From IMG/VR virus record IMGVR_UViG_2675903609_000008: DNA of 6,058 nt. One strand, written 5' to 3'. Positions 4,933 through 4,995 of the stretch are shown in pieces. The position numbers were made by a program, and so were the translations under genes. Under the pieces are notes generated by a model. It saw only the letters and a program-made list of their open reading frames with translations, made no database searches and had not been told where the DNA came from. Each line of letters begins with the position of its first letter. Within the stretch, counting starts at the first letter, position 1. Source of the DNA: a virus (Duplodnaviria; Heunggongvirae; Uroviricota; Caudoviricetes).

Positions 4933-4954
4933 AAACATAGCAACGGCTATGTTT
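4933..4954 (-). promoter_or_regulatory. MntR operator (perfect 9-bp inverted repeat with 4-bp spacer)
   Basis: AAACATAGC aacg GCTATGTTT at 4933-4954, 33-54 bp upstream of the sitA ATG. It closely resembles the MntR box of the E. coli mntH promoter as I recall it (AAACATAGC...GCTATGTTT). Confidence 0.7.
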
Positions 4955-4980
4955 TATAGCATAACCTATACAAAATGAAA
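4953..4980 (-). promoter_or_regulatory. Candidate sigma70 promoter of the sit operon (-35 TTTCAT, 16-bp spacer, -10 TATAAA, read on the minus strand)
   Basis: Minus-strand reading gives TTTCAT (plus 4975-4980), a 16-nt spacer, then TATAAA (plus 4953-4958). The predicted transcription start falls inside the MntR palindrome and the -35 overlaps the Fur-box-like site. This is a hexamer match by eye only. Confidence 0.4.
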
Positions 4981-4995
4981 ATAATTATCATTAAC
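4977..4995 (-). promoter_or_regulatory. Fur box-like operator
   Basis: The minus strand reads GTTAATGATAATTATTTTC, which matches the 19-bp Fur consensus GATAATGATAATCATTATC at about 15 of 19 positions. It overlaps the candidate -35 upstream of sitA. Confidence 0.6.

What the first reader, a model, noticed from the sequence alone, without database searches (positions are those of the whole stretch)
4933..4995. Dual metalloregulator operator layout at the sitA promoter
A perfect 22-bp MntR-type palindrome (4933-4954) lies over the predicted transcription start, and a Fur-box-like 19-mer (4977-4995) overlaps the predicted -35. This arrangement would give both Mn-dependent and Fe-dependent repression. 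The operon therefore looks intact and regulated even though it sits among decayed mobile DNA.
Basis: partly seen in the sequence, partly recalled or inferred. Interest (0 to 1): 0.4.

Follow-up and report, generated by a model that had tools for sequence, protein, structure and literature searches.

The report
Known Fur and MntR operators at sitA
The stretch upstream of the sitABCD metal-uptake operon carries a strong iron-repressor (Fur) site and a strong manganese-repressor (MntR) site over the promoter, which is the already published dual Fe/Mn control of this operon, so the finding is correct but ordinary.

Summary
Both sites are real and far above chance. On the minus (coding) strand, 4995..4977 is GTTAATGATAATTATTTTC. 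It matches the Fur consensus at 16/19. It scores 28 bits with a Fur matrix learned de novo from 15 E. coli K-12 promoters; no shuffle reached this. 4933-4954 is AAACATAGC-N4-GCTATGTTT. Its arms are identical to the K-12 mntH MntR operator. It scores 29 bits against 24-31 for known sites. Only the 9-bp arms are palindromic; the 4-bp centre is not.

The candidate promoter is TTTTCA-17-TATAAA. Its -35 lies inside the Fur box, and the predicted start, about 4943-4947, lies in the centre of the MntR site. The homologous K-12 mntS/rybA promoter, with an annotated 5' end, has the same geometry.

All four Sit proteins are full length, between IS, tail-fibre and integrase fragments.

Dual repression of sitABCD by Fur and MntR is attributed by the reviews I read to published work on Salmonella and Shigella flexneri, so this is already known.

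One addition: every one of 20 Enterobacterales sitA promoters has a second MntR-type site exactly 19 bp upstream of the first. In this window that site (4952-4973) is degenerate (4.5 bits).

The parts
4974..4995 (-). Fur operator. The classical 19-mer register is 4995..4977, GTTAATGATAATTATTTTC. The de novo matrix register is 4992..4974, AATGATAATTATTTTCATT.
   Evidence: 16/19 to the consensus, and 0 of 200 shuffles have a match. It scores 28.2 bits with the K-12-derived matrix, and 0 of 500 and 0 of 1000 shuffles reach that. A matching box occupies the same position in about 12 other genera.
4976..4981 (-). Candidate -35 hexamer TTTTCA (4 of 6), inside the 3' end of the Fur operator.
   Evidence: Read from the sequence. 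TT(T/G)(T/G)CA is conserved at this position in other genera. Not called by the promoter scan. Inferred.
4952..4973 (-). Upstream MntR-type site 'A', TTGTATAGG-TTAT-GCTATAAAA. Its core ATAGG-N4-GCTAT matches at 9 of 10. It is degenerate in this window.
   Evidence: It scores only 4.5 bits, which is not significant alone: 322 of 500 shuffles reach it. It does occupy the exact position, 19 bp upstream of site B, where all 20 Enterobacterales sitA promoters and K-12 mntS have a second MntR-type site. The plasmid sit allele has a perfect core here.
4953..4958 (-). Candidate -10 hexamer TATAAA (5 of 6), at the junction of MntR sites A and B.
   Evidence: Read from the sequence. The homologous junction in K-12 mntS holds TATAAT 8 nt before the annotated RybA 5' end. 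Inferred.
4933..4954 (.). Main MntR operator 'B', AAACATAGC-N4-GCTATGTTT, with perfect 9-bp arms.
   Evidence: It scores 29.15 bits with the K-12 MntR matrix, and 0 of 500 shuffles reach that. Its arms are identical to the K-12 mntH operator.
4943..4947 (-). Predicted transcription start zone, in the centre of MntR site B.
   Evidence: It lies 7-8 nt after the candidate -10. It also follows by homology from the mntS/rybA promoter, whose annotated 5' end lies in the spacer of its strong MntR site. Not measured.
4910..4912 (-). Weak Shine-Dalgarno AGG, with 9 nt between it and the sitA ATG.
   Evidence: Leader sequence.
3986..4900 (-). sitA, the periplasmic Mn/Fe-binding protein, 304 aa.
   Evidence: ORF list. 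Pfam ZnuA, E = 9e-86. 304 of 304 residues identical to RefSeq SitA.
3159..3986 (-). sitB, the ATPase, 275 aa.
   Evidence: 275 of 275 residues identical.
2305..3162 (-). sitC, a permease, 285 aa.
   Evidence: 285 of 285 residues identical.
1451..2308 (-). sitD, a permease, 285 aa.
   Evidence: 285 of 285 residues identical.

Best explanation
This is the native control region of the sitABCD Mn2+/Fe2+ ABC importer, read on the minus strand. Fe2+-Fur binds 4995..4974 and covers the -35 hexamer. Mn2+-MntR, a DtxR-family dimer, binds the AAACATAGC-N4-GCTATGTTT operator at 4954..4933, which spans the end of the -10 and the transcription start. Either repressor excludes or stalls RNA polymerase, so the operon is fully expressed only when both iron and manganese are scarce, for example inside host cells.

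A degenerate second MntR-type site (4973..4952) fills the gap between the two. This makes one contiguous array of about 60 bp: Fur, then site A, then site B.

Shown here: the sites exist, they score like genuine sites, and their positions are conserved. Taken from the literature: Fur- and MntR-dependent repression of sit in Salmonella and Shigella. Inferred: the exact -35, -10 and start, steric occlusion as the mechanism, and any role for site A in this allele.
For: Consensus and matrix scores are far above chance for both sites.

The MntR arms are identical to the K-12 mntH operator, which also has a Fur box just upstream.

There is a phylogenetic footprint. In 20 of 20 Enterobacterales sitA promoters the MntR sites lie 19-41 nt before the ATG region, and in about 12 genera a Fur site starts 19-20 bp (26 bp in the two Atlantibacter loci) before site A. 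Column information peaks on the boxes and collapses in the flanks.

Within E. coli, the promoter is present in 2356 of 5426 complete genomes, and the stretch from the Fur box to the ATG is nearly invariant across diverged alleles.

The homologous K-12 mntS promoter has its annotated RNA 5' end in the spacer of its strong MntR site, 8 nt after a TATAAT at the site junction.

Reviews report MntR and Fur repression of sitABCD in Salmonella and S. flexneri (PMC3852070; PMC8970401; PMC8432900; sitA is 53.8-fold up in a Salmonella fur mutant, PMC3212961).

The operon is intact.
Against: No transcription start, binding or expression data exist for this exact sequence. The generic promoter scan did not call the proposed promoter. 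The fur and mntR genes lie outside the window, so their presence in this genome is assumed. I could not read the primary papers (PMC545731 and PMC1539580 are not held), so the experimental claims rest on reviews and on my own memory of those abstracts. Site A is not significant on its own in this window.
Confidence: 0.9

Rival explanations
1. The 4933-4954 palindrome works as an RNA hairpin: an intrinsic terminator or attenuator in a longer leader transcribed from an upstream promoter. On this reading it is not a protein operator.
For: The terminator scan flagged it on the minus strand: a 9-bp stem with 3 G-C pairs, a 4-nt loop, then GTTCTAATTT. A weak promoter-like site lies upstream at 5114..5087.
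Against: The arms are conserved as a specific sequence, ATAGC/GCTAT, in 16 of 21 species at each site, rather than as arbitrary complementary pairs. The same sequence occurs at the K-12 mntH, mntS, mntP and dps promoters in quite different transcript contexts. The stem has only 3 G-C pairs and the T tract is interrupted. There is no Rfam match. The predicted start lies inside the palindrome, so the hairpin would not be transcribed whole.
Confidence: 0.03
2. The sites are genuine in sequence but inert here. They would be relics carried in with a horizontally acquired, decaying prophage or island, and the operon would be constitutive or silenced by other means such as H-NS.
For: The operon is flanked by an IS transposase, a tail-fibre fragment and an integrase fragment. 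The region is AT-rich.
Against: Both boxes are at or near consensus strength. They are the most conserved part of the intergenic region across E. coli chromosomal and plasmid alleles and across genera. All four genes are intact. Reviews report Fur/MntR control of this operon in Shigella.
Confidence: 0.04
3. Three-operator variant. MntR binds co-operatively as two dimers to sites A and B, which are 19 bp centre to centre and abut the Fur site. Site A would then contribute to repression in this allele too, sharpening or shifting the Mn threshold.
For: The best pair offset is exactly 19 bp in 20 of 20 Enterobacterales sitA promoters. The ATAGC/GCTAT core is perfect in 16 of 21 at each site. Strength alternates between the sites: Enterobacter, both Buttiauxella MAG and Atlantibacter loci have a strong A and a weaker B, whereas this window, Salmonella and Citrobacter have a weak A and a strong B. 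Among E. coli alleles, the plasmid allele has a perfect A core and a mutated B. K-12 mntS has the same 19-bp pair, whereas mntH, dps and mntP do not.
Against: In this window site A scores 4.5 bits, which is within chance. Conservation could partly reflect the -10 hexamer that overlaps the junction. There is no binding data. I found no paper describing it, but I could not read the primary sit papers or consult RegPrecise.
Confidence: 0.35

Closest known systems
Salmonella enterica serovar Typhimurium sitABCD promoter (Ikeda et al. 2005, J Bacteriol 187:912, cited in PMC3852070)
   Same: Orthologous operon. The Fur box is followed by MntR palindrome(s) in the same order and phase before sitA, as seen in the S. 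enterica subsp. arizonae locus L016. Repression by Mn through MntR and by Fe through Fur is reported in the reviews.
   Different: The sequences differ. The Salmonella Fur box is GCAAATAAGAATTATTTTC and its site B is TAACATAGCAAAGGCTATATTC. There is one more base between the Fur box and site A. The Salmonella operon lies in SPI-1, not at a Rac-like prophage end.
Shigella flexneri sit promoter (Runyen-Janecky et al. 2006, Infect Immun 74:4666, cited in PMC3852070 and PMC8432900)
   Same: Very probably this same locus or a near-identical allele. No complete E. coli genome holds more than 80% of the window, and the flanks are IS elements. The review reports repression of the uptake system by Mn-MntR.
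   Different: I could not read the paper. I therefore cannot say which bases were assigned as operators, or whether a start site was mapped.
E. coli K-12 mntH promoter (Patzer and Hantke 2001: dual repression by Fe-Fur and Mn-MntR)
   Same: The MntR arms are identical; AAACATAGC-AAAG-GCTATGTTT differs from this site by one base in the spacer. A Fur box lies just upstream (24 bits with my matrix).
   Different: It is a different gene, an NRAMP transporter. It has a single MntR site with nothing at plus or minus 19 bp. The Fur-to-MntR spacing differs. It also has an OxyR site, according to review PMC8632737.
E. coli K-12 mntS/rybA promoter
   Same: It has a tandem pair of MntR-type sites 19 bp apart, weak upstream and strong downstream. 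The -10 lies at the junction and the annotated 5' end lies in the spacer of the strong site. A preprint argues that mntS descends from a sitA 5' end (10.1101/2023.06.02.543501).
   Different: It has no Fur box (best score 6.3 bits, and elsewhere). It drives a 42-aa protein and small RNA, not a transporter.
Yersinia yfeABCD, Photobacterium and alpha-proteobacterial sitABCD promoters
   Same: Homologous transporters under metal-responsive repression.
   Different: According to a review, Yersinia lacks MntR and uses Fur for both Fe and Mn (PMC3852070). The Photobacterium loci show a Fur box only (3 mismatches) and no MntR box. The alpha-proteobacterial loci show neither box, but several have TTGCAA-N-CATT-like sequences.

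Membership tests
Fur box (Fe2+-Fur operator, enterobacterial type) | Match to the 19-bp consensus GATAATGATAATCATTATC, or to a matrix built from known sites | tested here: met
   16/19 to the consensus, and 0 of 200 shuffles have a match. It scores 28.2 bits with a matrix learned from 15 K-12 Fur promoters, and 0 of 500 and 0 of 1000 shuffles reach that.
Fur box (Fe2+-Fur operator, enterobacterial type) | Overlaps the core promoter of a metal-uptake gene | tested here: inconclusive
   It lies 77-95 nt before the sitA ATG and overlaps the only positionally conserved -35 candidate, TTTTCA. The promoter itself is inferred and was not called by the scan.
Fur box (Fe2+-Fur operator, enterobacterial type) | Conserved in orthologous promoters | tested here: met
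   A Fur-type site starts 19-20 bp (26 bp in the two Atlantibacter loci) before MntR site A in Phytobacter, Shimwellia, E. amylovora, Atlantibacter, Salmonella, Klebsiella, Raoultella, Buttiauxella, Citrobacter and Enterobacter. It is absent in most Pantoea.
Fur box (Fe2+-Fur operator, enterobacterial type) | Fur binding and fur-dependent Fe repression | not testable with these tools
   Literature only, through reviews.
Enterobacterial MntR operator (DtxR-family Mn2+ repressor) | Inverted repeat AAACATAGC-N4-GCTATGTTT, or a matrix of known MntR sites | tested here: met
   0 mismatches. It scores 29.15 bits against 23.9-31.1 for the K-12 mntH, mntS, mntP and dps sites, and 0 of 500 shuffles reach that.
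Enterobacterial MntR operator (DtxR-family Mn2+ repressor) | Promoter-proximal position at a Mn-homeostasis gene | tested here: met
   It lies 33-54 nt before the sitA ATG. The geometry is the same as at mntS, whose annotated 5' end lies inside the site.
Enterobacterial MntR operator (DtxR-family Mn2+ repressor) | Conserved in orthologous promoters | tested here: met
   The ATAGC-N4-GCTAT core is present in 20 of 20 Enterobacterales sitA promoters.
Enterobacterial MntR operator (DtxR-family Mn2+ repressor) | The mntR gene is present in the genome, with MntR binding and Mn-dependent repression | not testable with these tools
   mntR lies outside the 6-kb window. It is a core E. coli gene (b0817). 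Repression is known from the literature only.
Intrinsic terminator / RNA hairpin | G+C-rich stem followed by an uninterrupted U tract and transcribed as a whole, or covariation that preserves pairing rather than sequence | tested here: not met
   It passes only the lax scan (3 G-C pairs, tail GTTCTAATTT). The arms are conserved as a sequence. No Rfam family matches.

The most novel reading that the evidence does not exclude
The sitA control region of Enterobacterales may not be 'one Fur box plus one MntR box'. It may be a fixed-phase array of three operators: Fur, MntR-A and MntR-B. The two MntR sites are always 19 bp centre to centre, and the Fur site ends about 1 bp before site A. The strong and weak MntR sites swap places between lineages and between chromosomal and plasmid alleles. 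This suggests co-operative binding of two MntR dimers, and possibly Fur-MntR contact, that sets the Mn/Fe threshold. K-12 mntS has inherited the same pair. I found no description of this in the papers I could search, but I could not read the primary sit papers or consult RegPrecise.
Probability: 0.3. Interest if true: 0.3.

Novelty: already known. Interest (0 to 1): 0.1.

Why it matters
It confirms that this horizontally acquired Mn/Fe importer, a fitness and virulence factor in Shigella, pathogenic E. coli and Salmonella, still carries its full metal-responsive switch even though the mobile element around it has decayed. That is useful for annotation but adds nothing new to the biology. The only modest extension is the conserved tandem MntR-site geometry. 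If that geometry is functional, it would refine how the Mn threshold of sit and mntS is set.

Tried and rejected
1. The primary papers were not held, so the experimental statements rest on reviews. This applies to Ikeda 2005 (PMC545731), Runyen-Janecky 2006 (PMC1539580) and Waters 2011 (PMC3194919).

2. The generic sigma-70 scan found no promoter at the operators. It found only weak, unrelated candidates at 5114..5087 (minus strand) and 5199-5227 (plus strand), at background frequency.

3. Site A scored with the K-12 MntR matrix is not significant on its own. I therefore do not claim it is functional in this allele.

4. A generic test for a perfect palindrome does not discriminate, because 20% of shuffles have one. 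Only the motif-specific tests do.

5. An Rfam scan of 4700-5500 at E <= 1 found nothing.

6. The SitA relatives in alpha-proteobacteria, Halomonas, Salinicola and Oceanisphaera show neither box. Photobacterium shows a Fur box only. These loci do not help the footprint.

7. Literature searches for a description of tandem MntR sites at sitA or mntS found none.

8. An ArcA-type reading of the GTTAAT...ATTAT stretch was considered by eye only (about 9 of 15 matches) and dropped.

9. The species of origin could not be fixed, because the collections exclude Shigella chromosomes.

Full report
**Context**

The window carries sitDCBA on the minus strand. sitA is 4900..3986, sitB 3986..3159, sitC 3162..2305 and sitD 2308..1451. 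The region of interest is therefore the DNA upstream of sitA, and it is best read on the minus strand.

The best E. coli matches are 99.8% identical over 449-5303. They place the operon at the end of a Rac-like prophage next to uspF and ompN. No complete E. coli genome holds more than 80% of the window, and the ends match thousands of records. The source is therefore probably a Shigella or EIEC-like chromosome with IS elements at the flanks, but I could not fix the species.

The four Sit proteins are full length, have no internal stops, and are 100% identical to RefSeq-annotated E. coli proteins. The flanks hold:
- an IS transposase orfA (67-678);
- a DUF4376 tail-fibre fragment (567-1250), interrupted by a masked run of N at 843-954;
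- a phage-integrase catalytic-domain fragment (5362-6015, minus strand).

'Intact operon among decayed mobile DNA' is therefore correct.

**The MntR-type site**

4933-4954 is AAACATAGC-AACG-GCTATGTTT. The arms are perfect and the 4-nt centre is not palindromic. Perfect inverted repeats with 9-bp arms are not rare in themselves: 20% of shuffled windows have one, and a second lies at 5645-5668. The test that matters is the match to the MntR motif.

The arms are identical to the E. coli K-12 mntH operator, AAACATAGC-AAAG-GCTATGTTT, which I read directly from NC_000913. I built a matrix from the five K-12 sites found with that pattern at mntH, mntS, mntP (two sites) and dps. The window site scores 29.15 bits, inside the training range of 23.9-31.1. 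The next-best locus in the window scores 5.5, and 0 of 500 dinucleotide shuffles reach it.

**The Fur box**

On the minus strand, 4995..4977 is GTTAATGATAATTATTTTC. It matches the classical consensus at 16/19 and is the only match with 3 or fewer mismatches in the window. No shuffle produced such a match.

To avoid relying on a remembered consensus, I fetched 15 K-12 intergenic regions of established Fur-regulated genes: fhuA, fepA-fes, fepD-entS, fepB-entC, fiu, tonB, cirA, exbB, fecI, fecA, ryhB, sodA, fhuF, fhuE and feoA. I ran a width-19 EM motif search on them. It converged on AATGATAATCATTTTCATT, which is the Fur box in a register shifted by 3 nt.

That matrix scores 28.2 bits at 4974-4992. 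The next locus scores 11.0. 0 of 500 whole-window shuffles and 0 of 1000 shuffles of the AT-rich intergenic stretch reach it. The operator is best given as 4974-4995.

**The promoter**

The tool's scan called nothing here, because its rule needs a T at the last -10 position. The -35 then lies inside the Fur operator, and a start 7-8 nt after the -10 falls at about 4945, in the centre of the MntR site.

Independent support comes from K-12 mntS/rybA. A preprint argues that this gene descends from the 5' end of an ancestral sitA (10.1101/2023.06.02.543501). Its promoter has the same arrangement, with a TATAAT at the junction before its strong MntR site. The RefSeq-annotated RybA 5' end lies in the 4-nt spacer of that site, 8 nt after the -10. 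The layout is therefore plausible, but it is still inferred.

**Comparative evidence**

A scan of one genome per species with SitA gave 80 loci.

In all 20 Enterobacterales loci an MntR-type palindrome lies shortly before sitA. In about 12 genera a Fur-type site lies just upstream of it. Most Pantoea lack the Fur box. Photobacterium has a Fur box only, and the alpha-proteobacteria have neither.

I aligned the promoters on the MntR sites. Column information is 1.3 bits per position in the MntR cores and 0.63 in the Fur box, against 0.17 in the upstream flank.

Within E. coli, the promoter is present in 2356 of 5426 complete genomes, at 1681 chromosomal and 1058 plasmid places. Across six alleles that are 85-100% identical, the stretch from the Fur box to the ATG is almost invariant and the DNA upstream is variable.

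Every one of the 20 loci has two MntR-type sites. The best-scoring pair is exactly 19 bp apart in all 20, and where a Fur site is present it usually starts 19-20 bp before the upstream MntR site (26 bp in the two Atlantibacter loci). The three sites therefore form a contiguous array of about 60 bp.

Which of the two MntR sites is strong differs between lineages. Enterobacter, the Buttiauxella MAG, Atlantibacter and Phytobacter have a strong upstream site. This window, Salmonella, Citrobacter and Erwinia amylovora have a strong downstream site. The E. coli plasmid allele has a perfect upstream core and a mutated downstream one.

In this window the upstream site (4973..4952, core ATAGG-TTAT-GCTAT) scores only 4.5 bits, which is within chance on its own. 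I list it as a positional homologue, not as a demonstrated operator.

K-12 mntS shares the 19-bp pair. mntH, dps and mntP do not.

**Rival explanations**

- The terminator scan flagged the palindrome as hairpin-like. However, the arms are conserved as a sequence rather than as pairing. The same sequence serves at unrelated K-12 promoters. No Rfam family matches. The predicted start also lies inside the palindrome.
- The idea that the sites are inert relics is contradicted by their near-consensus strength and by their being the most conserved intergenic bases.

**Comparison with what is known**

- Reviews state that Mn-MntR represses mntH and sitABCD in enterobacteria. They cite Ikeda 2005 for Salmonella and Runyen-Janecky 2006 for S. 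flexneri (PMC3852070).
- A sitA-lacZ fusion in Salmonella depends on sigma-S only when either Fur or MntR is present (PMC8970401).
- sitA is 53.8-fold up in a Salmonella fur mutant (PMC3212961).
- From my own memory, not verified here, the Ikeda paper disrupted both sites by mutation. Also from memory, the Shigella paper showed Fe and Mn repression that partly depends on Fur and MntR.

**Verdict**

The finding re-derives published regulation correctly. It is already known, and its interest is low. The tandem-site geometry is a small and possibly undescribed refinement.

Noticed in passing
window 4952-4973; loci L005-L024: There is a second MntR-type palindrome exactly 19 bp (centre to centre) upstream of the main one in all 20 Enterobacterales sitA promoters examined. 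Which of the two sites is the strong one differs between lineages. In this window the upstream copy is degenerate (4.5 bits).
   Followed up: yes
L003 6055-6095 (E. coli K-12 mntS/rybA promoter): The mntS promoter has the same 19-bp tandem pair of MntR-type sites. A TATAAT lies at the junction, and the annotated RybA 5' end lies in the spacer of the strong site. It has no Fur box. This fits the proposed descent of mntS from a sitA 5' end.
   Followed up: partly
window 5110-5354: Seven copies of (G)GGGCAAA(A/T) lie within 250 bp: six on the plus strand (5110, 5119, 5138, 5149, 5335, 5346) and one inverted (5249-5257). They lie between the sitA promoter and the stop of the integrase fragment. 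They may be arm-type recombinase binding sites of the island's att region.
   Followed up: partly
window 843-954: A run of 112 N (masked or unsequenced) lies inside the DUF4376 tail-fibre ORF region.
   Followed up: no
window 67-678, 567-1250, 5362-6015: An IS transposase orfA (HTH_Tnp_1), a DUF4376 phage tail-fibre fragment and a 217-aa phage-integrase catalytic-domain fragment flank the operon. In related E. coli the operon sits at the end of a Rac-like prophage next to uspF and ompN.
   Followed up: partly
window 5645-5668: A second perfect inverted repeat with 9-bp arms and a 6-nt spacer lies inside the integrase fragment. It has 6 mismatches to the MntR pattern and is probably chance.
   Followed up: no
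window 4916-4932; aligned leaders of L005-L022: A moderately conserved block lies 10-25 nt downstream of MntR site B in sitA leaders. It reads TTTTAATCAC or AATTAACCA in other genera and gttctaattttgctcac in this window. Its function is unknown.
   Followed up: no
L099, L100 (E. coli plasmid sit alleles) versus the window: The plasmid allele has a perfect site-A core (ATAGC-TTCT-GCTAT), a mutated site-B arm (ATAGT) and a 2-bp deletion between the Fur box and site A. In site strength it is the reverse of the chromosomal allele in this window.
   Followed up: partly
L039, L046 (Corticimicrobacter, Betaproteobacteria): The sitA-like promoter has an MntR-type palindrome (ATATATAGCACTAGCTATATTA) immediately followed by a Fur-like box. 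This is the reverse of the enterobacterial order.
   Followed up: no
L007, L010, L013, L014, L023, L024 (Pantoea): These sitA promoters keep both MntR-type sites but have no Fur box at the conserved position. This suggests Mn-only control in that genus.
   Followed up: no
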